The notes beneath the pieces were generated by a model. That model did no database searches, was not told the DNA's origin, and saw only the letters and a list, made by a program, of their open reading frames with translations. 64,000 bases of DNA from Candidatus Woesebacteria bacterium RIFCSPHIGHO2_01_FULL_38_10. GTDB taxonomy: Bacteria; Patescibacteriota; Microgenomatia; UBA8517. The translations under genes were made by a program, and so were the position numbers. Of this stretch, positions 20,203-57,985 are shown one piece after another. The stretch covers positions 3,555-67,554 of the forward strand of contig MGGC01000038.1 in assembly GCA_001792215.1 (NCBI GenBank), in the 5' to 3' direction. Within the stretch, counting starts at the first letter, position 1. The number at the start of each line of letters is the position of its first letter.

Positions 20203-22155
20203 ATGAACACTTTAATCCCAGATAGTTGGTTAAAAGAATATCTAAAAACTCAAGCTAAACCAAGTCAAATTGCTAAATTTTTATCCCTTTGCGGACCATC
20301 GGTAGAAAAAGTAATAAAAGAAAACGGGGACTTCGTTTACAACATCGAAGTTACGACAAACAGAGTCGATTCAATTGGAGTTTATGGAATCGCACGCGAG
20401 TTAGCAGCAATTCTTCCACAGTTCGGAATATCTGCTCACTTTGTTGAATTAAAAATAAATAAAGATGCAATATTTAGCAAAAAAGTAAAATATCTGGATG
20501 CTCTGGTTGACCAAGATTTGTGCCCAAGATTTGCTGCATGTTTAATTAAGAATGTAAAAATTAAACCATCTTCAGCTACGATTCAAAAAAGAATTAAACT
20601 CGTGGGATTAAGACCAATAAACAACGTAGTTGATATATCAAACTATATCATGCATGAGTTAGGACAGCCCGTTCATACCTTCGATTACGATAAAATTTCT
20701 AGTCATAAAATGATCCTTCGAAAAAGTAAAAAAGGTGAAAAAATAACCACTTTAGACAGTAAAATGCATACTCTGGGTGGTGGGGATATCGTAATTGAAG
20801 ACGGCGCAGGAAGACTTATTGACTTGGCTGGCATTATGGGCGGACAAAATTCTGCAGTTAGTGATAAAACAAAAAACGTTCTCTTATTCGTTCAAACGTA
20901 CAACCCTGTAAATATCCGAAAAACATTTACAAGTCTTTCTCAAACAACTGAAGCTGCAATCCTTTTTGAAAAAGGACTTGATCCAGAACTTGTCAGATTA
21001 GGAACACTACGTGGGATCGATCTTATGGAAGAATTGACGGAAGGTACTGCAGAAAAAGAAGTACTTGATTTATATCCCGAACCTTATAAACCCAAGACCC
21101 TAAGAATAACAGTAAGCTTCATCGAAAAAAAATTGGGGATCAGCTTAAAACAAAATCAGGTTGTAAAAATACTTGAAACTCTTGGTTTCGGCATCCGTGT
21201 AAATCAAGACAATCTGTATATTCAAGTACCGTCCTTCAGAGTAAGAGATATAGAAATCCCCGAAGATATCGTTGAAGAAGTGGCAAGACTTTACGGCTAC
21301 CACAACCTGCCAAGCAAATTAATGGCTGGAGAATTACCAGACAGTCTTAGCGACTTTACATTTGCCTTCGAAATAAAACTCAAAAGGATCTTAAAAGAGT
21401 TAGGCGCAAATGAAATATATACAAACTCTCTAGTTCCAAAGGAATTCGTAAGTTCAAATGCCTTAAAGTTAAAAAACCCACTTGGTTCTGACTCCGAATA
21501 CTTAAGAACAAGTCTTAAATTTTCACTTATTCAAGCGGCAGATGACAACAAAGGAATAAAAATTCCTTTCCACCTTTTTGAAGCCGCAAATGTATATTTA
21601 CCACAAGCAAGGCAACTGCCAAAAGAAATAATGACACTTTCTGGAATATTTTCAAATCATTCTTACCGTGAGGCTAAAGGTGTCATCGAAGCTTTTTTAG
21701 AAGAACTAAACATTAGTTATAAAATTCAAGTTGAAGATGCAAAAGATTTTCTTCCTAATCAGAGAGTATTATTTAATATAAATAATACTAAAATAGGTGA
21801 ATTTGGTGTATTAGAACAAAAAAAATATATCTATTATGAATTCGAAATAGAGAAACTTAAGAGAGTTTACAAGCCATATAATACGTTTAAACCGATGGCA
21901 AAAGTCCCTGCACAAATTGAAGACATTACCCTAATTTTACCTGAACGAACCAAGCTTGAAAGCGTGATTCAATCTATTAAACAAGCATCAAAGCTAGTTT
22001 CATTAATTGAACTAAAAGACATTTACGAGAGCTCATACACATTCACTATTCACTACCAACATCCAACAAAAACTTTGACTGATAAAGAGGTTGAAGAAAT
22101 AAGAAGAACATATGTCGGCTATTTAAAACACAAACATTGTGCAAGCTTAAAATAA
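20203..22155 (+). CDS. pheT: Phenylalanyl-tRNA synthetase beta subunit (short, 650 aa)
   Basis: N-terminal MNTLIPDSWLKEYL, B3/4 and B5 regions, C-terminal FDVB-like domain; GGAGG RBS 9 nt upstream; follows pheS. Confidence 0.85.
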   Translation: MNTLIPDSWLKEYLKTQAKPSQIAKFLSLCGPSVEKVIKENGDFVYNIEVTTNRVDSIGVYGIARELAAILPQFGISAHFVELKINKDAIFSKKVKYLDALVDQDLCPRFAACLIKNVKIKPSSATIQKRIKLVGLRPINNVVDISNYIMHELGQPVHTFDYDKISSHKMILRKSKKGEKITTLDSKMHTLGGGDIVIEDGAGRLIDLAGIMGGQNSAVSDKTKNVLLFVQTYNPVNIRKTFTSLSQTTEAAILFEKGLDPELVRLGTLRGIDLMEELTEGTAEKEVLDLYPEPYKPKTLRITVSFIEKKLGISLKQNQVVKILETLGFGIRVNQDNLYIQVPSFRVRDIEIPEDIVEEVARLYGYHNLPSKLMAGELPDSLSDFTFAFEIKLKRILKELGANEIYTNSLVPKEFVSSNALKLKNPLGSDSEYLRTSLKFSLIQAADDNKGIKIPFHLFEAANVYLPQARQLPKEIMTLSGIFSNHSYREAKGVIEAFLEELNISYKIQVEDAKDFLPNQRVLFNINNTKIGEFGVLEQKKYIYYEFEIEKLKRVYKPYNTFKPMAKVPAQIEDITLILPERTKLESVIQSIKQASKLVSLIELKDIYESSYTFTIHYQHPTKTLTDKEVEEIRRTYVGYLKHKHCASLK

Positions 22156-44318: not shown

Positions 44319-46274
<1,956 letters not shown>

Positions 46275-50234: not shown

Positions 50235-50444
50235 GCTAATTAAGTTATCTAAGCTTACAAGTACATATTATAAGCTTTATGACGCGGAAATCAAGAAGGT
50301 GTGTAAAAAAACTAAACTATAAAATAATACTTGTTTACCAGCTTCAAAAAAGATAAGATTAAATAGGCTTGGTGAACCTATTTTTTGTCGGCCAAGCGTG
50401 ATTCTACTTGTTACTGGTTACTTGTTACTTTTCACCCAAAAAAT

Positions 50445-53075
50445 ATGGACATCGGAAAAATTCAGCCCACGAAAATAACCGAGGAAATGCAAAAGTCATA
50501 CCTTGACTACGCAATGAGCGTGATTGTGGCAAGAGCACTGCCTGATGTCAAAGACGGACTAAAGCCGGTTCACCGAAGAATCCTTTTTGCCATGCAGCAA
50601 ATAGGTTTAAATCCAACTTCTGCTTTTACAAAATCGGCAAAAGTGGTTGGTGAAGTCTTGGGAAAATACCATCCACACGGAGACATTCCGGTTTATGACG
50701 CTTTGGTCCGAATGGCACAAAGTTTCTCAATGCGCTATCCATTGGTAAAAGGGCAGGGAAATTTCGGTTCGGTAGACGGCGATCCTCCGGCTGCTATGCG
50801 TTACACAGAAGTAAAACTTGCTCCGATTTCAAACTATATGCTTTCCGACATCGAAAAAGAAACAGTTGATTTTATGGATAATTTTGATGCGACTTTAAAA
50901 GAACCGACTTTCCTTCCGGCTCTTCTTCCCAACTTACTTCTCATGGGCTCCGAAGGAATCGCGGTCGGAATGGCCACCAAAATTCCACCACATAATTTAA
51001 CCGAAGTTGTAAACGCAATTATAACTACAATCAAAAAAGGGAAAGTAACCTATGAGGCCGCAAAACAGGAAGAACAGACAGAATTTGTTATCAAGAGAAT
51101 TTCTTTACTGGCCTCAGGTGAAAAAAAGGGGCAAGAAGCAGGAAGAGAAGTGAAACCCCAAGATGTAGGTTTTGAAAGCGATATTACAATTGAAGAATTA
51201 ATTCAAATTATTCCCGGACCTGATTTCCCCACAGGAGGGGCTATTTATGATGCAACGTCCTTAAGAGACGTTTACGCAACAGGAAGAGGAAGAGTAGTTA
51301 TTCGGGGTATCGCAGAAATTAAAGACTCGCCTGCGCGAGAGGGAAGCAGTAAAGGTAGACAACAGATAGTTATTTCCGAAATTCCCTATCAGGCAAATAA
51401 ATCTCAACTTGTTAAGAAAATCGCTGATTTGGTAAAAGAAAAGAAAGTCACAGGAATTTCAGACCTGAGAGACGAGTCTGATAAAGAAGGAATGAGAGTG
51501 GTTGTTGATCTTAAACGCGATGCCCGACCAAAATCAATTCTCAATAATCTTTTTAAACACACCCAACTTCAAACAACATTTCCTGCAAATTTTGTCGCAC
51601 TGGTTGACGGAACTCCCTATACCTTAAACCTGAAGCAAATCATAGTTGAATATATAAAACACAGACAAAAAGTTATCACAAGAAGAGTTATTTTCGAGTT
51701 AACTGCTGCCAAACGCCGGGCCCACATCATTGAAGGATTAAAAATTGCGCTAGACAACCTGGACGAGGTAATTTCAACAATCAAGAAAAGCCGCACTCAG
51801 GAAGAAGCAAAGGTTAACTTAATGAAAAAATTTGCCCTAAGCGAGATCCAGGCTATCGCAATTCTGGATATGCAGCTTAGACGCTTAGCGGCACTTGAAC
51901 GGGAAAAAATTGAAAAGGAGTACGAAGAGGTTAAAAAGATAATCGATGAGTTAACCAGCATTCTCAAAGATCCGAATAAAGTACTATCAATCATCATCAA
52001 TGAACTATCCCAAGTAAAAGAAAAATTTGCTGATGCAAGAAAAACAAAAATTTATAAGCAAAAAATAGGGCAGTTCAGCGAGGAGGATCTTATTGCCAAA
52101 GAAGATACTCTCATCATGCTCACAAAAACTGGTTACATAAAAAGACTACCCAGAGCAACCTATAGAACACAACGAAGGGGAGGTAAGGGGGTAACCGGAA
52201 TGGCAACCAAAGAAGAAGATGAGATCGAACATCTAGTCTCAGCCACAACCCATGATACGATTCTTTTCTTTACAGATAAAGGAAAAGTCTACGGAACAAA
52301 ATCCTGGGAGATACCAGAAACATCTCGCCAGGCAAAGGGACAAGCGGCAGTCAATATAATCAATATCAGTCAAGATGAAAAAATTATGTCGGTATTACCT
52401 TTAAGCGCCAAAGGAAAACATCTCATCATGGCGACCAGTCTCGGCACAGTAAAAAAGACTCCAGTTTCTAAATATACCAATCTAAGAGTATCGGGCCTTA
52501 TTGCTATTAAACTTGATACAAACGATTCATTAGTCTCTGTTCACGAAACCGCAGGTGACGACCATATAATACTCATTAGCAAAGGAGGAAAATCTATTCG
52601 CTTTCCAGAAGCAAATGTCCGTCCTATGGGAAGAGCTACAACCGGCATGAGGGGAATTAAACTGGAAAAGGGCAATGAAGTTATCGGTATGGAGGTATTT
52701 GCCGCCAAAGACGTTCCTCCTAAAGATAGAAGGCGTAAATTTTTTAGAGACCTTCTAACCATCTCTGAACATGGACTTGGAAAAAGAACGCCGATCCATC
52801 TTTTTCCTGTCCAAAAGCGGGCCGGGAAGGGGGTAAAGGCAGCGGCGGTCAATACAAAAACCGGACAACTAACAACCGAAGTCATCCTCACCCAAGAGGC
52901 TGAACAGATTGCCATTACCTCAAAGACTGGCCAAGTGATAAAACTTCCCGTAAAAAATATTCCCCAAATGGGAAGAAATACCCAGGGAGTAATCTTAATG
53001 CGTTTTGCCAAAAAGGGCGATGGTGTTGCAGCTGTAGCTGCCCTTAATAGAAATGGGGATAAAGAAGGGGAATAA
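50445..53075 (+). CDS. gyrA: DNA gyrase subunit A
   Basis: Catalytic Tyr region [13 protein letters not shown] region, six-blade C-terminal domain; track start 50385 is TTG, ATG at 50445 (MDIGKIQ). Confidence 0.95.
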
Positions 53076-54110: not shown

Positions 54111-54380
54111 TCAAGATAACATTTCTTCGTAGCTCTCTCTAAAGATTTTATTCAACTCCTCTGGCGTATGAGAGTCCAGTCTATAACCACCTGCTAACTT
54201 TCTTACTTTCGTAATTGCTTCTTCTTTCAATAGCTTCTTCTTTTGCTCTTTTATGGGTTTTATTTTCGCTAATTTTTTGTCTCGATAGGTCAGTGTCAAA
54301 GTAGTACCAAGAGTCAAAGCAACTAGAACTCTGCCAAAATTCTCCCTAAGTTCTTTAGTAGAAATAGTCTGAGTTTGCAT
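54111..54380 (-). CDS. Phd/YefM-like antitoxin-family protein (orphan)
   Basis: N-terminus TISTKELRENFGRVLVAL...LTLTYRDKKLAKIKPI resembles Phd/YefM; no toxin-sized ORF downstream. Confidence 0.4.
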   Translation of the reverse strand: MQTQTISTKELRENFGRVLVALTLGTTLTLTYRDKKLAKIKPIKEQKKKLLKEEAITKVRKLAGGYRLDSHTPEELNKIFRESYEEMLS

Positions 54381-54411: not shown

Positions 54412-55389
54412 TCAACGCCCTTTCCCATGAAACGCGTCATGAATTTCTCTCAAGTGCTTATGAGTTACATGAGTATAAATCTGGGTTGTCTGGATATTTT
54501 TATGCCCCAGCATTTCCTGAACACTTCTAATATCTGCCCCAGCCATCAATAAATCAGTTGCGAAAGAGTGCCTCAGGACATGAGGGGTTACCTCAATTGG
54601 TAACTTCATTTTTTCGCCATATTTTTTGATCATTCTCTGAACAGATCGGGAAGTAAGGCGAACTTTTTCATCAGAAGTGGAAGGACTAATCGCACCTTTA
54701 TGTCTTATAAAAAGTGGTTTAAATTTATCCTCTCTTACTTTAAGATAATTTTCAAGCCAGTTAACTGCTCTTTGTGACAAAAAAACAATACGCGCCTTCC
54801 CACCTTTTCCCACAATTCCAAACTCTCGTCTCTGCAAATCAAGTTTATCCCGGTCAAGTCTCACTAATTCGGAAACCCGAAGCCCGGTTGAAAATAAAAC
54901 TTCCAAAATTGCCTTGTCGCGCTTGCCCTGAACGGTTGATAGGGTAGGGGCGTTAAGAAGCCTGTCAATCTGCTCTCCGGTCAGGAATTTAACTTGCCTT
55001 TCTGAAACCTTGGGAAGATCTATCTTGTCAGGCGACATAACTTCATAGTCATTTTTGATAAGCCAGCGAAGAAAGGATCGGAGCGCAATTACATGATAAG
55101 CCTGAGTTCTCCTGCCTAAAGTTGAATCCTTGCTGCGGGAGTAAGGTCGACTGAATTTAATAGGCAGTCTTGAAAGAAAAACCCTGTATTGTCTTACCAA
55201 CTCGGGGTTTATATCGCGAAGTCCCAATCGGATTCCTTCTTTTCTTAACCAGTCCAAAAAGCGGTTTAAATAGTGCCTATAATTTCTTATTGTTAGGCTA
55301 GAGGAGCCTCTCTCAACCTCCAGATACTCTAAAAACTCATCAATTTTTTTTGACAGCTCGGAAGAATTTTTCTGGGCAGAGGAAACCAT
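54412..55389 (-). CDS. Tyrosine site-specific recombinase, XerC/XerD family
   Basis: N-terminal SAM-like domain; catalytic R...HVLRHSFATDLLMAGADIRSVQEMLGHKNIQTTQIYTHV with nucleophile Tyr. Confidence 0.85.
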   Translation of the reverse strand: MVSSAQKNSSELSKKIDEFLEYLEVERGSSSLTIRNYRHYLNRFLDWLRKEGIRLGLRDINPELVRQYRVFLSRLPIKFSRPYSRSKDSTLGRRTQAYHVIALRSFLRWLIKNDYEVMSPDKIDLPKVSERQVKFLTGEQIDRLLNAPTLSTVQGKRDKAILEVLFSTGLRVSELVRLDRDKLDLQRREFGIVGKGGKARIVFLSQRAVNWLENYLKVREDKFKPLFIRHKGAISPSTSDEKVRLTSRSVQRMIKKYGEKMKLPIEVTPHVLRHSFATDLLMAGADIRSVQEMLGHKNIQTTQIYTHVTHKHLREIHDAFHGKGR

Positions 55390-56348
55390 TTACAAAAACA
55401 CTTTACAGCAAATATAGAAGTTTGTCAATATTGTGCGACATTAAAGTGTTCTCCTTTTACTACTCTCTTTCCCTTCCTCCTCTTGAAGCGTTAAAAATCC
55501 TAACGTGGGTGTCAGCCAAACATCTTGTGTTTATACCATCAGGACATCCCTTTTCAACACTTCTTTCGAAAATCGGTTTCCAAGACTCAATGCGAGCTTT
55601 CTCATCAAGTTTTTTAGCATGTTTAACTGTAGCAGGAGTCTGTTTACAACCGACATAAAAACCGACTTCACCAAATCAATTCTAAGGCCTTCGTTTTATA
55701 AAATATGAGTAAGTGATCATTTCAATCAAAATATTTTTACCCAGATTTGCCGTTTTTATAATGTCTACGAAAAAGAAAAAAGTTCTTACAAAAAATAGGG
55801 GAGTGGGCAACTTTATTAGAAAGACTCTAGATCTAGTATATTTCGGCTTTAGTTCGGTAGGAAAAATTTATTAACATATCCATAAAAGAGAACTAAAATG
55901 ATTAAATTGTAAAATTAACTTTTATCATTAAAACAAAAAGAGGAAAAAAGAGATAAAAAAAACACCCCACTCTAAACAGCTATCTAACTTAGTCGCAAAA
56001 GTATTCTTGTACGACTATAATGTTTTTTCCATACATCCCACTTTACCCAGATCTCCTCCTGGGAGGACTACTAAATGATTTTGACTAATCAAAAACTTAA
56101 AAATATATAATTTTATCCAGAAGCATTTATATTTCTCCTCTAAAAACCTATACTTATCCACAAAATGAGAGAAAGAAATTCTATGCAATATTCTTTCTTA
56201 TCTACTAAGAGAAGTATTGAGCACAATAACTATATCAAACTATAACAATTATTTTGAAGTTCACCCTTCGGGAAATATTCGTATGAGTTAAATTATGTAC
56301 CGTGTCGTGAAAAAAAATTGTAAAATTTGTGAAAAAAATCTCTAACGT

Positions 56349-56365
56349 CCTATAATTATTATAGG
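56349..56365. repeat. Perfect 17-bp palindrome CCTATAATTATTATAGG in a large AT-rich spacer
   Basis: 8-bp arms with a 1-nt centre; candidate protein-binding site ~1 kb upstream of the xer gene. Confidence 0.5.
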
Positions 56366-56448
56366 GTACCTAAACTTTCATCTCTCCCCCTTCCCCCCTT
56401 GCGTGCCGCTCTCTCAATAAATTTATAAAAAAAATGAAAATCTTTTTT

Positions 56449-57225
56449 TTATCCACCCCAACGAGTTGCAAAAAACATTCCCAAAAATACTAATAAACCC
56501 AAAACCAAGTATTCCCTAACGGTTTGGACAAAAAGACGCCCTTCTAAATCTGCCTGTCCCAAACCTAAAATCATATAAGATGTTGCTGTTAAAAAAAGAG
56601 AACCTACCAAAACCGTAACAGGCCAAAAATAAAGCGCCAAAGATATTTCAAAGCTAACTATACTTGCGATTAAGGACATTCCCAAAAAAAATTTCGATTT
56701 CTTTTTGGTCAAAGGAATCGTCCAATATCCCTGGAGATACAAGGGAAAACTCAAGCAAAAAATGGATAAACCTGAAAGATAAATATTCCAGCGTAATGAG
56801 AAAATAGTGTTAAAAAGCAAAAAAAATGTAAGAAGAGTTAATACAAATCCTACTCCCCTAGCCGCTCTGAGCAATGCTATCGTTCTGATTGTGGCAACCG
56901 TATAGATATTAGCTGTTAAACAAAGCGCGTAAATCCCCAACCCATAAAGTAAAATAATTGGTATTCGAGTAAGAATACTGCTTGGTAAAAGAAACCAAAA
57001 AAGCCCTACTCCGATAGTAAAAAGGATAGGCAAAACCAATGTTAGAAGCGTTAAATTAAGCCCTAATCCCTCCCAAAGCGACCAAACGAAAAAAATTACT
57101 GTTAATAATCCTAAAACCCCGATAGCAAAAATTTTGTAAGATTCAAGAATCTGCACACCAATAAATCCCATCGAAAGAATTAAAGAAGTTGTAATGAAAC
57201 GTTTTCTTTTACTCAGATCAAACAC
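56449..57225 (-). CDS. Polytopic membrane protein (hypothetical)
   Basis: 258 aa, ~8 predicted TM helices, no motif recognised. Confidence 0.5.
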   Translation of the reverse strand: MFDLSKRKRFITTSLILSMGFIGVQILESYKIFAIGVLGLLTVIFFVWSLWEGLGLNLTLLTLVLPILFTIGVGLFWFLLPSSILTRIPIILLYGLGIYALCLTANIYTVATIRTIALLRAARGVGFVLTLLTFFLLFNTIFSLRWNIYLSGLSIFCLSFPLYLQGYWTIPLTKKKSKFFLGMSLIASIVSFEISLALYFWPVTVLVGSLFLTATSYMILGLGQADLEGRLFVQTVREYLVLGLLVFLGMFFATRWGG

Positions 57226-57244: not shown

Positions 57245-57985
57245 CTAAATTCCACTAAGTACTTCCTGAGGAATATCAAAATTGGCATAGACCTTTTGAA
57301 CGTCTTCGTGATTTTCTAAACTATCTAAAAAATTCAATAACTTCTCTGCGGTTTTTCTATCTTCTATCGTCTGCAGGTTTTTGGGTTTTTTGACAAGTTC
57401 GGATGATATAATGGAAAACCCCAAGTTTTTCAAAGTATTGCAGCTATCTGCAAGATTGCCCGGACTCACATATATTTCAAGAGCATCCCCGGTCTCATCA
57501 ATATCCTCTACCTGAGCATCTATTAATTTCAACATCTGTTCTTCACTGTCTTTTTCTTTTTTAACCACAATTAAACCTCTGGGTTCGAAATTAAAAGAGA
57601 CCGCGGCAGGACCAACTAAATTACCACCTACTCTCTCAAAAATATTTTTGATTTCCTGCCCTGTTCTATTTCTATTGTCAGTTGCGGCTTCAACAATAAC
57701 TGCTACTCCTGAAGGACCAAATCCTTCATAAGATATCTCTTCAAACTCTTTCCTTTCCCCTGAGCCTCTGGAAATTGCCCTTTGTATATTATCTTTGGGC
57801 ATGTTGAGTGCACGCGCATGCTCAATTGCCACTCTCAGTTTTGGATTGGCCGAGGGATCAGAAGATTTACCTGCCCTTACAGCAATTGAAATTGCTCTGG
57901 CAAGCTTACTAAAAACTTTCCCCCGCTCTATATCCCGAACTCCTTTTTGTCTTTTAATTGTTGACCACTTTGAATGTCCTGACAT
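57245..57985 (-). CDS. yebC: YebC/PmpR-family transcriptional regulator
   Basis: Hallmark N-terminus MSGHSKWSTIKRQKG. Confidence 0.85.
   Translation of the reverse strand: MSGHSKWSTIKRQKGVRDIERGKVFSKLARAISIAVRAGKSSDPSANPKLRVAIEHARALNMPKDNIQRAISRGSGERKEFEEISYEGFGPSGVAVIVEAATDNRNRTGQEIKNIFERVGGNLVGPAAVSFNFEPRGLIVVKKEKDSEEQMLKLIDAQVEDIDETGDALEIYVSPGNLADSCNTLKNLGFSIISSELVKKPKNLQTIEDRKTAEKLLNFLDSLENHEDVQKVYANFDIPQEVLSGI

What the first reader, a model, noticed from the sequence alone, without database searches (positions are those of the whole stretch)
55390..56448. ~1-kb AT-rich non-coding region upstream of the xer gene with a perfect 17-bp palindrome and DnaA-box-like 9-mers
This is the longest ORF-free stretch in the window (the only plus-strand track ORFs, at 55350-55708, merely span its xer-proximal edge). 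It contains CCTATAATTATTATAGG (56349-56365), a second palindrome TCCTCCTGGGAGGA (~56060), one exact TTATCCACA (56154-56162) and two one-mismatch variants (56113-56121, 56449-56457). In organisms with a single Xer recombinase (XerS, XerH) the dif site lies right next to the recombinase gene. DnaA boxes could instead mark an origin. Either a chromosome-maintenance site or an integrative-element att/regulatory region is plausible.
Basis: partly seen in the sequence, partly recalled or inferred. Interest (0 to 1): 0.5.

Follow-up and report, generated by a model that had tools for sequence, protein, structure and literature searches.

The report
Conserved Xer recombinase site, not origin
The 1-kb gap upstream of the xer gene in this Woesebacteria-like (candidate phyla radiation) genome is a chain of short DNA motifs kept across the whole Microgenomates group. 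The sharpest is a single-copy 28-bp dif-like site that the neighbouring Xer recombinase most likely acts on, but the locus is neither a replication origin nor at the replication terminus, where such sites normally lie.

Summary
On their own they are close to chance: 5 perfect palindromes in the window against 2.9 simulated, and 24 DnaA-like 9-mers against 16 expected.

Comparison with about 200 related Microgenomates loci shows what is conserved:
A 24-28-bp imperfect inverted repeat, window 55990-56017 on the minus strand, family consensus ATGTCGCACAA-TAATAC-TTTTGCGACGT. It has dif-like 11-6-11 geometry, is single-copy, and always lies upstream of xer on the same strand.
- **Extra half-site.** Its left half, GTCGCACAAT, recurs against the -35 hexamer of the xer promoter.
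- **Upstream module.** One exact DnaA-box 9-mer (56154-56162) and the 8-mer CCTATAAT (half of the 17-bp palindrome) belong to a conserved multi-motif module upstream of the core.

Third-codon GC skew keeps one sign on both sides of the locus regardless of gene strand. No dnaA lies nearby, and only one DnaA box is conserved, so this is neither oriC nor a skew-defined terminus.

Best reading: a gene-linked Xer target site with an autoregulated xer gene, plus an accessory or regulatory module of unknown role. I rate it a new variant of a known kind. No Xer binding or recombination was tested.

The parts
55390..56448 (.). Whole 1059-bp gene-free gap between xer and the DUF5656 gene. It is filled with a chain of short blocks conserved across Microgenomates.
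   Evidence: Largest ORF gap in the window and 31.5% GC. No gene called on the source scaffold. No Rfam hit. Collinear blastn blocks in many loci.
55990..56017 (-). Dif-like core site TAGTCGTACAA-GAATAC-TTTTGCGACTA. The invariant 24-mer is 55992-56015. Geometry: two about 10-bp imperfect inverted arms (GTCGYACAA / rc GTCGYAAAA) around a less conserved centre.
   Evidence: Unique in the window (2 hits at one position against 0.09 expected). Present in 55 of 80 loci found through their xer gene at up to 7 mismatches of 28. Sharply bounded logo in 70 sites. One copy in 189 of 200 loci. In a search anchored on the site itself, xer lies downstream in 45 of 50 loci and DUF5656 upstream in 70 of 71.
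55430..55439 (-). Extra copy of the left half-site, GTCGCACAAT, abutting the -35 hexamer of the xer promoter. Candidate operator for autoregulation.
   Evidence: Only match in the window. The exact 10-mer sits just upstream of (A)TTGACA in about 50 of 80 loci, and stays with xer when a gene is inserted upstream.
55400..55428 (-). xer promoter: -35 TTGACA (55423-55428), 17-nt spacer, -10 TAAAGT (55400-55405). The ATG is at 55387-55389, so the leader is very short.
   Evidence: Promoter scan. Conserved TTGACA-N17-TAnAnT in relatives.
54412..55389 (-). xer gene: 325-aa tyrosine recombinase of XerC/D/A type with the R-K-H-R-H-Y catalytic residues present.
   Evidence: Pfam Phage_integrase 2e-45 plus SAM-like N-domain. 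NCBIfam XerD 257 bits, XerC 252 bits (both below cut-off), archaeal XerA 229.9 bits (above the 220 cut-off). PDB best hits XerD 6.5e-43 and XerA 1e-38. 51-79% identical in the 80 best loci, spanning the Microgenomates. Protein sequence.
56154..56162 (-). Conserved DnaA-box 9-mer, TGTGGATAA on the xer-sense strand (TTATCCACA on +). It lies 145 nt upstream of the core in the window.
   Evidence: Exact, same orientation, in 80 of 110 distinct loci within 1100 nt upstream of the core, never reversed, against 2 in the downstream control. The logo is sharply bounded to TGTGGATAAC.
56349..56365 (.). In some lineages it forms a hairpin followed by a T-run downstream of the DUF5656 gene.
   Evidence: 8-mer present in 110 of 164 loci. 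Inverted repeat in only 27, with a T-run after it in 9, and direct repeats in 17. The arms covary in a few loci (CCCCATAA/TTATGGGG).
56305..56335 (-). Two direct repeats of TTTTCACR (56328-56335 and 56305-56313), 22 bp apart start to start.
   Evidence: A pair spaced 18-26 bp is present in 83 of 110 loci upstream of the core and in 0 downstream. Logo GTTTTCACGAAA. Positions.
56230..56248 (-). Tandem motif (T)GATATAGTTTGATATAG: two extended -10-like TGnTATAGT units 10 bp apart.
   Evidence: Present in 74 of 110 loci upstream against 3 downstream. Logo. Promoter scan reports TTCAAA-18-TATAGT with a preceding TG on the minus strand at 56258-56229.
56382..56399 (-). Purine-rich box (AGGGGGGAAGGGGGAGAG on the xer-sense strand), the first element after the DUF5656 stop codon.
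   Evidence: Conserved GGGGAGnAGGGG-type run in the 16-locus alignment and in the motif map.
55963..55973 (-). Purine box (AGAGTGGGGTG) 17 nt after the core, followed by a T-rich run.
   Evidence: Logo positions +44 to +52 are G-rich and +55 to +69 T-rich. Alignments.
55797..55808 (-). Pyrimidine box GCCCACTCCCCT (conserved CTCCCC).
   Evidence: A CTCCCC-like motif was recovered 90-300 nt after the core (mostly about 155-185 nt) in 140 loci. The window coordinates are my reading. A pairing test against the purine box gave no covariation (cognate -14.5 against non-cognate -14.2 kcal/mol, p = 0.48).
55700..55723 (-). Conserved inverted-repeat/T-run motif (family AGAYGAT..TCRTCTTTT), preceded in relatives by a covarying short hairpin (CCCG..CGGG, UUCG..CGAA). 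Terminator-like on the xer-sense strand.
   Evidence: Pairing is imperfect in many loci, so the evidence for an RNA is only suggestive.
55664..55690 (-). Block2, AGGCCTTAGAATYGATTTGGTGARG, at a near-constant 272-344 nt after the core. Possible promoter (TTAGAA...TATATT) for whatever follows. In close relatives a variable ORF lies between it and the xer promoter.
   Evidence: blastn and alignment. Variable ORFs. No pseudogene remnant in the window.
56054..56067 (.).
   Evidence: Sequence. A CCTCC..GGAGG pair appears in only some relatives.
56449..57225 (-). DUF5656 membrane-protein gene, the conserved upstream neighbour that defines the syntenic frame (YebC - DUF5656 - motifs - core - xer - gyrA convergent).
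   Evidence: Pfam. Synteny in 69 of 80 loci.

Best explanation
The gap holds the cis-acting parts of a gene-linked Xer recombination module that is conserved throughout the Microgenomates (candidate phyla radiation).

Shown:
- A single-copy 24-28-bp site with dif geometry (about 11-bp imperfect inverted arms, 6-bp centre) lies 0.2-5.5 kb upstream of the xer gene, always on the same strand.
- An exact extra copy of its left arm abuts the -35 hexamer of the xer promoter.
- A separate conserved motif module lies about 120-600 bp upstream of the core and stays next to the core when other DNA is inserted after the DUF5656 gene. It comprises a purine box, the CCTATAAT 8-mer, two TTTTCACR repeats 22 bp apart, a tandem GATATAG unit and one consensus DnaA box.
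- The locus is not at a GC-skew inflection.

Inferred:
- Two Xer monomers bind the two nearly identical arms and exchange strands across the central TAATAC between sister copies of the site. This would resolve chromosome dimers in the way XerS/difSL, XerH/difH or archaeal XerA/dif do.
- Xer bound to the promoter half-site regulates its own synthesis.
- The upstream module is a regulated promoter/terminator region or an accessory nucleoprotein site, with DnaA as one likely ligand, that modulates the core. Its mechanism is unknown.
- Because the site is away from the skew-defined terminus, the reaction would have to work without the usual positioning at the terminus by FtsK and its orienting KOPS sequences.
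For: - **Geometry and conservation.** Logo of 70 sites from loci found through their xer gene: GTCGYACAAT-RWWA-CTTTTRCGAC(GT). The arms are invariant, the centre is variable, and conservation falls to background within 1-2 nt of the edges.
- **Near-symmetric arms.** GTCGYACAAT against rc GTCGYAAAAG, as expected for one recombinase species.
- **Protein half-sites rather than a hairpin.** Position 5 and its mirror vary almost independently (C/G 79, C/A 49, T/G 23, T/A 30).
- **Single copy.** Unique in the 64-kb window and one copy in 189 of 200 loci.
- **Linkage tested both ways.** Of 80 loci found through xer, 55 carry the site at up to 7 mismatches of 28. Of 120 metagenome contigs found through the site, 45 of 50 have xer downstream on the same strand and 70 of 71 have DUF5656 upstream.
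- **Promoter half-site.** The same 10-mer sits at the xer promoter in about 50 of 80 loci.
- **Recombinase.** XerC/D/A-type with catalytic residues present, and 51-79% identical across the superphylum. In two lineages it carries an intein, which I read from general knowledge as a trait of housekeeping genes.
- **Sequence resemblance.** 14 of 28 positions match E. coli dif (my count; E. coli sequence from PMC2731167). This is the level reported for archaeal dif against the bacterial consensus (PMC2958812).
- **Upstream module is specific to the core.** Within 1100 nt upstream: DnaA box in 80, TTTTCACR pair in 83, tandem GATATAG motif in 74, CCTATAAT 8-mer in 77 of 110 loci. In the downstream control: 2, 0, 3 and 6.
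Against: - No binding or recombination was tested.
- The site fails the positional hallmark of dif. GC3 skew of the xer-sense strand is positive on both sides and equal for genes on either strand (left 0.186 and 0.199; right 0.136 and 0.151). This holds in 80 of 86 loci and from -13 to +13 kb when pooled. In the window there is no inversion for 56 kb on the xer side.
- Its G+C content (36%) is not below the genome average (38%).
- Whether this is the only Xer, and the only such site, in a whole genome could not be checked.
- The promoter half-site fits equally well with an unrelated transcription factor that binds GTCGCACAA.
- A consensus TATAAT abuts the left arm, and conserved blocks with a terminator-like motif follow the core. 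The site could therefore be an operator or part of a transcript.
- The distance from the upstream module to the core is not fixed (117-1016 bp), and the motif order differs between lineages. That argues against a rigid accessory architecture.
Confidence: 0.6

Rival explanations
1. The region is the chromosomal replication origin (oriC). DnaA would bind the boxes and unwind the adjacent AT-rich repeats.
For: - One consensus DnaA box is very strongly conserved.
- It is preceded by AT-rich tandem repeats, in the same order and orientation as the unwinding element and box R1 of E. coli oriC (my recollection of the E. coli sequence).
- There are direct repeats with 22-bp spacing, and gyrB and gyrA lie within 12 kb.
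Against: - Only one box is conserved per locus, always in one orientation.
- GC3 skew does not invert at the locus in 80 of 86 loci or in the window.
- No dnaA lies in the window or in about 200 loci. The probe was validated against solved DnaA structures.
- The flanking genes read in the same direction through the locus (YebC and DUF5656 upstream, xer downstream), and gyrA converges on it rather than diverging.
Confidence: 0.04
2. The conserved blocks are parts of one or more non-coding RNAs transcribed on the xer-sense strand. Candidates are a long 3' UTR of the YebC-DUF5656 operon, or an RNA started at the -10-like elements and ended at the hairpin/T-run before block2. The 24-mer would then be an RNA element or an operator of that transcription unit.
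For: - More than 12 short conserved islands are separated by variable spacers of fairly constant length, all in one orientation.
- A short hairpin before the T-run motif shows compensatory changes (CCCG/CGGG, GCCG/CGGC, UUCG/CGAA, CCUAU/AUGGG).
- A terminator-like AGAYGA..TCRTCTTTT motif is present.
- There are several -10-like hexamers, including TATAAT abutting the core.
- Precedent: the Rcd RNA is transcribed from a promoter inside the ColE1 cer Xer site (PMC4393325).
Against: - No Rfam family matches even at E up to 10.
- Folding z-score is -0.66 on the xer-sense strand.
- There is little pairing constraint in the 24-mer: 27% of sites have C/A mismatches.
- There is none in the purine/pyrimidine boxes.
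- The T-run hairpin is unpaired in many loci.
- Motif order is permuted between lineages.
- The extra half-site lies upstream of a -35 hexamer, in untranscribed DNA.

This reading is not exclusive of the main explanation.
Confidence: 0.2
3. The 24-mer and the promoter 10-mer are operators of an unidentified transcription factor, not of Xer, that controls xer and a neighbouring promoter. No recombination occurs there.
For: - Both copies abut promoter hexamers: TATAAT before the 24-mer and TTGACA after the 10-mer.
- The position is not at the terminus.
Against: - The 11-6-11 geometry, the asymmetric conserved centre and the 14 of 28 identity to dif are what a tyrosine-recombinase core looks like.
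- Strict co-occurrence with a recombinase gene over superphylum-scale divergence.
- No regulator gene is conserved in the neighbourhood. The Phd-like ORF after xer is specific to the window.
Confidence: 0.1
4. The site is an attachment site (attB or IMEX-type) used by integrative elements, and the gap is a scar or regulatory region of such an element.
For: - Variable ORFs and up to several kb of extra DNA occur between the core and xer, and between xer and gyrA, in different lineages.
- Regions around dif are known hot spots for mobile DNA (PMC2731167).
Against: - No second or degenerate copy of the site flanks the inserted DNA: one copy in 189 of 200 loci.
- The inserted ORFs lie after block2, about 300 nt from the core rather than at it.
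- The site is absent from 2.9 million viral contigs.
- xer and the flanking synteny are chromosomal and conserved.
Confidence: 0.04

Closest known systems
XerS/difSL (streptococci, lactococci) and XerH/difH (Helicobacter, Campylobacter): single-recombinase modules with the dif site next to the recombinase gene
   Same: [quoted passage not shown]
- The arms are near-symmetric, which suggests one recombinase species.
- The inner arms are A-rich on the left and TTTT on the right, as in difH (GAAAA-CTATAA-TTTTC in PMC2731167 against CACAA-TAATAC-TTTTG here).
   Different: - The protein is not XerS or XerH. NCBIfam XerS scores 147 bits against a 267 cut-off. XerH in the PDB scores 3e-11, against 6.5e-43 for XerD.
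- The site is 0.2-5.5 kb from the gene (median about 1.2 kb), compared with 66 bp in Arcobacter butzleri, the closest case in Table 2 of PMC2731167.
- difSL and difH lie near the GC-skew peak, and this site does not.
- The extra half-site at the promoter and the upstream DnaA-box module have no described counterpart.
Canonical XerC/XerD-dif
   Same: - 28-bp 11-6-11 architecture in non-coding DNA, single copy.
- 14 of 28 identity to E. coli dif, mostly in the left arm (CGCA.AAT).
- The recombinase is most similar to XerD and XerC.
   Different: - Only one xer gene is seen, and it sits next to the site.
- The arms are nearly identical to each other.
- The protein scores below the XerC and XerD equivalog cut-offs.
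- The site is not at the skew inflection.
- Its G+C content is not below the genome average.
Archaeal XerA/dif
   Same: - The protein passes the NCBIfam XerA_Arch cut-off (229.9 against 220).
- One recombinase with highly symmetric arms.
- In Sulfolobus the dif site is reported to lie away from replication termination zones (my recollection of Duggin et al. 2011, not checked here).
- Archaea encode no FtsK homologue (PMC2958812).
   Different: - This organism is a bacterium.
- In Thermococcales dif is not next to xerA and does lie at the terminus (PMC2958812).
- Independence from FtsK is untested here.
ColE1 cer (and pSC101 psi): Xer core plus about 180-bp accessory sequences, with the Pcer promoter and Rcd RNA inside the site
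   Same: - A Xer-type core with a conserved block of other protein-binding motifs on one side.
- A -10-like hexamer abuts the core and conserved non-coding sequence follows it, recalling Pcer/Rcd (PMC4393325, PMC5357621).
- Such sites work independently of position because accessory proteins impose topological selectivity.
   Different: - This locus is chromosomal and carries its own recombinase gene.
- No ArgR, PepA or ArcA sites were identified.
- The distance from module to core is variable (117-1016 bp) and the motif order is permuted.
- Promoter activity and the RNA are hypothetical.
oriC
   Same: One consensus DnaA box next to AT-rich repeats.
   Different: - A single box is conserved.
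- There is no skew inversion.
- No dnaA or dnaN lies nearby.
- Flanking genes read in the same direction through the locus.

Membership tests
chromosomal dif site (Xer core site) | [quoted passage not shown] | tested here: met
   Logo of 70 sites: ATGTCGCACAA-TAATAC-TTTTGCGACGT. The arms are invariant, the centre is variable and the edges are sharp.
chromosomal dif site (Xer core site) | Lies in non-coding DNA | tested here: met
   It lies in the 1059-bp gene-free gap and in the intergenic region in relatives.
chromosomal dif site (Xer core site) | One copy per chromosome | tested here: inconclusive
   Unique in the 64-kb window and one copy in 189 of 200 loci. All site-anchored metagenome hits lie in the same gene context. 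No whole genome could be scanned.
chromosomal dif site (Xer core site) | Located at or near the GC-skew inflection (replication terminus) | tested here: not met
   GC3 skew has the same sign on both sides, independent of gene strand, in 80 of 86 loci and from -13 to +13 kb pooled. In the window there is no inversion over 56 kb on the xer side or 8 kb on the other side.
chromosomal dif site (Xer core site) | G+C content lower than the genome | tested here: not met
   10 of 28 positions are G or C (36%) in the window copy, against 38.3% for the window (sequence).
chromosomal dif site (Xer core site) | Sequence similarity to the bacterial dif consensus | tested here: inconclusive
   14 of 28 identical to E. 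coli dif (my count; sequence from PMC2731167). By my estimate about 8-9 would be expected by chance in AT-rich DNA.
chromosomal dif site (Xer core site) | Bound and recombined by the cognate Xer recombinase; resolves chromosome dimers | not testable with these tools
   Requires gel-shift or cleavage assays, or genetics.
gene-linked single-recombinase module (XerS/difSL, XerH/difH) | Site genetically linked to the recombinase gene | tested here: met
   xer lies downstream on the same strand in 45 of 50 site-anchored loci, at a median distance of 1.2 kb.
gene-linked single-recombinase module (XerS/difSL, XerH/difH) | Recombinase belongs to the XerS or XerH family | tested here: not met
   NCBIfam XerS 147 bits against a cut-off of 267. 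PDB XerH 3e-11 against XerD 6.5e-43.
gene-linked single-recombinase module (XerS/difSL, XerH/difH) | Only one Xer recombinase in the genome | not testable with these tools
   One xer in the 64-kb window. No complete genome was accessible.
XerC / XerD (NCBIfam equivalogs) | Score above the curated cut-off | tested here: not met
   XerD 257.2 bits (cut-off 329.6) and XerC 252.2 bits (cut-off 335.15).
archaeal-type XerA (NF040815) | Score above the curated cut-off | tested here: met
   229.9 bits against a cut-off of 220. The raw scores to XerC and XerD are higher, so this is a weak assignment.
oriC | Cluster of several DnaA boxes | tested here: not met
   Typically one box per locus, always in one orientation.
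oriC | GC-skew sign change at the site | tested here: not met
oriC | Neighbouring dnaA/dnaN (usual, not universal) | tested here: not met
   No tblastn hit in the window or about 200 loci. The probe was validated.
oriC | AT-rich unwinding element next to a box | tested here: inconclusive
   AT-rich tandem GATATAGTTTGATATAG lies upstream of the box. No unwinding test is possible.
known structured RNA family (Rfam 15) | Covariance-model match | tested here: not met
   Nothing at the gathering threshold in the window. Only chance-level hits at E up to 10 in 55200-56700.
cer/psi-type Xer site with accessory sequences | Accessory protein-binding region at a fixed distance on one side of the core | tested here: inconclusive
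   A conserved module is always on the same side. Its distance is 117-250 bp in most lineages but 350-1016 bp in others, and the motif order is permuted.

The most novel reading that the evidence does not exclude
The locus is a self-contained, position-independent chromosome-dimer-resolution unit. A XerA/XerD-like recombinase gene, its core site and a DnaA-box-bearing accessory module would impose resolution selectivity or cell-cycle timing. A checkpoint-type RNA might be read across the core, as with cer/Rcd. The unit would work away from the terminus and without FtsK/KOPS positioning. That would be a plasmid-style or archaeal-style solution used by a whole bacterial superphylum, with DnaA as a new accessory factor of Xer recombination.

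A more radical sub-case is not excluded by the local data. The DnaA-box module could be the origin and the core the dif site, lying together because replication is unidirectional. That would also give a constant skew sign on both sides.
Probability: 0.12. Interest if true: 0.85.

Novelty: new variant of a known kind. Interest (0 to 1): 0.55.

Why it matters
Xer/dif systems are known in detail for Proteobacteria, Firmicutes, epsilon-proteobacteria and some archaea. I found nothing on the candidate phyla radiation in the paper library available here.

- **A concrete, testable candidate.** This locus gives a 24-28-bp core, a cognate recombinase and a likely autoregulatory half-site for a large uncultured superphylum.
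- **A site off the terminus.** If the site is the dimer-resolution site, its position off the skew inflection would mean that terminus and FtsK-guided positioning are not universal in bacteria.
- **An unexplained DnaA box.** A perfectly conserved lone DnaA box in a fixed orientation beside the site points to a link between the initiator protein and recombination or transcription there.
- **Practical use.** The 24-mer and its flanking motifs are a ready marker for this syntenic locus when curating Microgenomates genomes assembled from metagenomes.

Tried and rejected
- **Rfam** on the whole window and, permissively, on the gap: nothing.
- **Pseudogene hypothesis.** tblastn of the variable ORFs that relatives carry between the core and xer finds no remnant in the window.
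- **Small-ORF hypothesis.** The 24-mer often starts with ATG (possible 9-codon ORF), but the first three positions vary freely. No conserved ORF follows the GGAGG-like boxes (my reading).
- **Hairpin or RNA reading of the 24-mer.** C/A mismatches occur in 27% of sites.
- **Long-range pairing of the purine box with the CTCCCC box.** Cognate and non-cognate duplex energies do not differ.
- **RNA folding z-scores** are unremarkable.
- **KOPS-like reading of the GGGGAG boxes.** GGGGAG-type motifs in the window show no strong strand bias and mostly follow the coding strand.
- **parS reading of TTTTCACGAAA.** It shares only the TTTCACG half of the parS consensus (recalled from memory) and occurs as direct rather than inverted repeats.
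- **Integron reading.** The integron-integrase model scores 111 bits against a 265 cut-off.
- **Viral contigs** do not carry the site.
- **Plain GC skew and gene-strand counts** were misleading because they are dominated by coding-strand effects and by one conserved synteny block. GC3 skew resolved this.
- **Exact GATATAGTTTGATA inside pheT** at 20636 is probably chance.
Full report
**1. What the window is**

The xer product (54412-55389, minus strand) is 51-79% identical to proteins in the 80 best-matching loci in the one-genome-per-species collection. Where these are named, almost all are Woesebacteria or other Microgenomates of the candidate phyla radiation. The source is a 70.9-kb aquifer metagenome scaffold.

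Genes around the finding:
- gyrB (44325-46274, +), H+-pyrophosphatase and gyrA (50385-53075, +)
- a small hydrolase and a Phd-like ORF
- xer
- the 1059-bp gap
- DUF5656 (56449-57225, -) and YebC (57245-57985, -)

**2. The observation**

The gap is the longest gene-free stretch in the window. It is 31.5% GC against 38.3% for the window, and an independent gene call also leaves it empty.

The second palindrome is imperfect (6-bp arms, 2-nt centre). Taken alone the features are near chance. There are 24 DnaA-like 9-mers in the window against 16.4 +/- 4 expected. There are 5 perfect palindromes with arms of at least 8 bp against 2.85 +/- 1.4 simulated.

**3. What comparison shows**

The order YebC - DUF5656 - gap - xer on one strand, followed by a convergent gyrA, is kept in most loci. 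blastn of the gap against the loci gave several collinear conserved blocks.

*The core site.* The strongest block is a 24-28-bp site at window 55990-56017 on the minus strand: TAGTCGTACAA-GAATAC-TTTTGCGACTA.
- In 70 sites from loci found through their xer gene, the logo is GTCGYACAAT-RWWA-CTTTTRCGAC(GT). The arms are invariant, the centre is looser, and the fall to background at both edges is abrupt.
- The two arms are near-identical inverted copies (GTCGYACAAT and GTCGYAAAAG).
- The site is unique in the window and present once in 189 of 200 loci.
- A search anchored on the site itself returned 120 metagenome contigs, each with one copy. Of these, 45 of 50 with enough flank have xer downstream on the same strand, and 70 of 71 have DUF5656 upstream.
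- No viral contig carries it.
- Position 5 and its mirror position vary almost independently, with 27% C/A combinations. That fits two protein half-sites better than a hairpin.
- The family consensus shares 14 of 28 positions with E. coli dif (sequence from PMC2731167). This is the level reported for archaeal dif (PMC2958812). Its inner arms resemble difH.

*The promoter half-site.* The exact 10-mer GTCGCACAAT, which is the left arm plus the first base of the centre, lies immediately upstream of the -35 TTGACA of the xer promoter. In the window it is at 55430-55439, with the -35 at 55423-55428 and the -10 at 55400-55405. It is present in about 50 of 80 loci, and it stays with xer when another gene is inserted upstream. 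The simplest reading is that Xer binds its own promoter.

**4.

These belong to a second conserved unit upstream of the core. On the xer-sense strand it comprises:
- a purine-rich box
- the 8-mer CCTATAAT
- two TTTTCACR repeats about 22 bp apart
- a tandem GATATAGTTTGATATAG
- one TGTGGATAA(C)

In 110 distinct loci, the 1100 nt upstream of the core contain the exact box in 80 (never reversed), the TTTTCACR pair in 83, the tandem GATATAG motif in 74 and the CCTATAAT 8-mer in 77. The 1100 nt downstream contain 2, 0, 3 and 6.

The unit stays near the core when DNA is inserted after DUF5656. However, the order of its motifs differs between lineages: TTTTCACR pair before the DnaA box in 49 loci and after it in 19. 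Its distance to the core ranges from 117 to 1016 bp.

The 17-bp palindrome is not conserved as a palindrome. It is an inverted repeat in 27 of 164 loci, in 9 of which a T-run follows. It occurs as direct repeats in 17, and the 8-mer alone is present in 110. The one-mismatch boxes are not conserved.

Several of these motifs look like -10 elements (TATAAT, TGnTATAGT). I therefore favour a regulated promoter/terminator region or an accessory nucleoprotein site, with DnaA as a probable ligand. This is inference only.

**5. Downstream of the core**

Further conserved islands follow: a purine box, CCGAA, CTCCCC, a short covarying hairpin, an AGAYGA..TCRTCTTTT motif, and block2 (AGGCCTTAGAATYGATTTGGTGARG) at a near-constant 272-344 nt from the core. 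In the closest relatives a variable ORF lies between block2 and the xer promoter. The window has none and no remnant of one.

These islands keep open the possibility of a transcript crossing the core, as with Pcer/Rcd in ColE1 cer (PMC4393325). The evidence for an RNA is weak:
- no Rfam match
- folding z-score of -0.66
- no covariation between the purine and pyrimidine boxes
- an often unpaired T-run hairpin

**6. Origin or terminus?**

Plain skew and strand counts were confounded by coding-strand effects. Third-codon-position skew is not: it is the same for genes on either strand. For the xer-sense strand the values are +0.186 and +0.199 left of the core, and +0.136 and +0.151 right of it.
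- The sign is the same on both sides in 80 of 86 loci.
- It is positive in every 1-kb bin from -13 to +13 kb.
- In the window nearly every gene across the 64 kb has the same sign.

The locus therefore lies inside a replichore. The fork would pass from DUF5656 towards xer, and the terminus would be more than 56 kb away in this genome.

No dnaA lies in the window or in about 200 loci, using a probe that recognises distant DnaA proteins. In the complete genome CP066686.1 the site is near 854 kb of 1.079 Mb. If that record starts at the origin, as the depositing laboratory recommends (bioRxiv 10.1101/808410), the site is mid-replichore and on the strand predicted by the skew. I could not verify where that record starts.

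**7. The recombinase**

- Pfam gives a tyrosine-recombinase catalytic domain plus a SAM-like N-domain.
- NCBIfam scores are XerD 257 bits and XerC 252 bits, both below cut-off. Archaeal XerA scores 229.9 bits, above its 220 cut-off. XerS and the integron integrase score far below theirs.
- The best solved relatives are XerD (6.5e-43) and XerA (1e-38), with XerH far weaker.
- The catalytic R, K, H-x-x-R, H and Y residues are present (my reading of the sequence).

**8. Verdict**

The gap is real and functional. Its core is best explained as the target site of the adjacent Xer recombinase, in a gene-linked arrangement like XerS/difSL and XerH/difH but with a XerC/D/A-type protein, together with an autoregulatory half-site.

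It fails the positional criterion for a canonical dif and all criteria for oriC. I therefore describe it as dif-like in architecture and probably in chemistry, without filing it as a canonical dif.

The role of the DnaA-box module is unknown. No paper in the available library describes the site.

Confidence that Xer acts on the 24-28-mer is about 0.6. Confidence that the outcome is chromosome-dimer resolution is lower.

Noticed in passing
L052 6001-8214 (also L065): The xer gene of two related lineages is a 737-aa ORF with an in-frame intein inserted inside the catalytic HxxR-H motif (HVLRH|CLHPE...LAGIYDAEG...VSHN|SFATDLL), including a LAGLIDADG homing-endonuclease motif.
   Followed up: partly
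window 55387-55428 (-): The xer promoter (-35 TTGACA, -10 TAAAGT) ends only about 10 nt before the ATG, so xer mRNA is leaderless or nearly so. In many relatives the promoter spacer carries a conserved inverted repeat (ACACT..AGTGT).
   Followed up: no
window 1-64000: Third-codon GC skew has one sign across nearly the whole window regardless of gene strand. About 60% of coding DNA, including gyrA and gyrB, lies on the C-rich (lagging-like) strand, so gene orientation does not follow the replication strand here.
   Followed up: partly
L001 5163-5912, L002 5238-5939, L006 5211-5942 and others: The closest relatives carry a variable 230-250-aa ORF between block2 and the xer promoter. By eye it looks like a HAD-type hydrolase in some (not checked with a domain search) and is unrelated in others. 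The space between xer and gyrA also varies by 0-5 kb, so this is a local hot spot of gene gain and loss.
   Followed up: partly
window 20636-20649 (-): An exact copy of the 14-mer GATATAGTTTGATA (17 of 18 matches to the extended motif) lies inside the pheT coding sequence. It is probably chance.
   Followed up: partly
window 54111-54380 (-): An 89-aa ORF just downstream of xer has a weak Phd/YefM antitoxin hit (E = 0.0024). It has no counterpart in any of the 80 related loci.
   Followed up: partly
L153 (Ga0074199_1000010), L125, L163, L181, L188: Several long metagenome contigs (100-506 kb) begin or end within a few hundred bases to a few kb of the site. Assemblies may tend to break here, perhaps because of population variation in the adjacent variable region.
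   Followed up: no
L057 1954-2859: One locus has a second, distant tyrosine recombinase (36% identical) about 2.5 kb upstream of the main xer.
   Followed up: no
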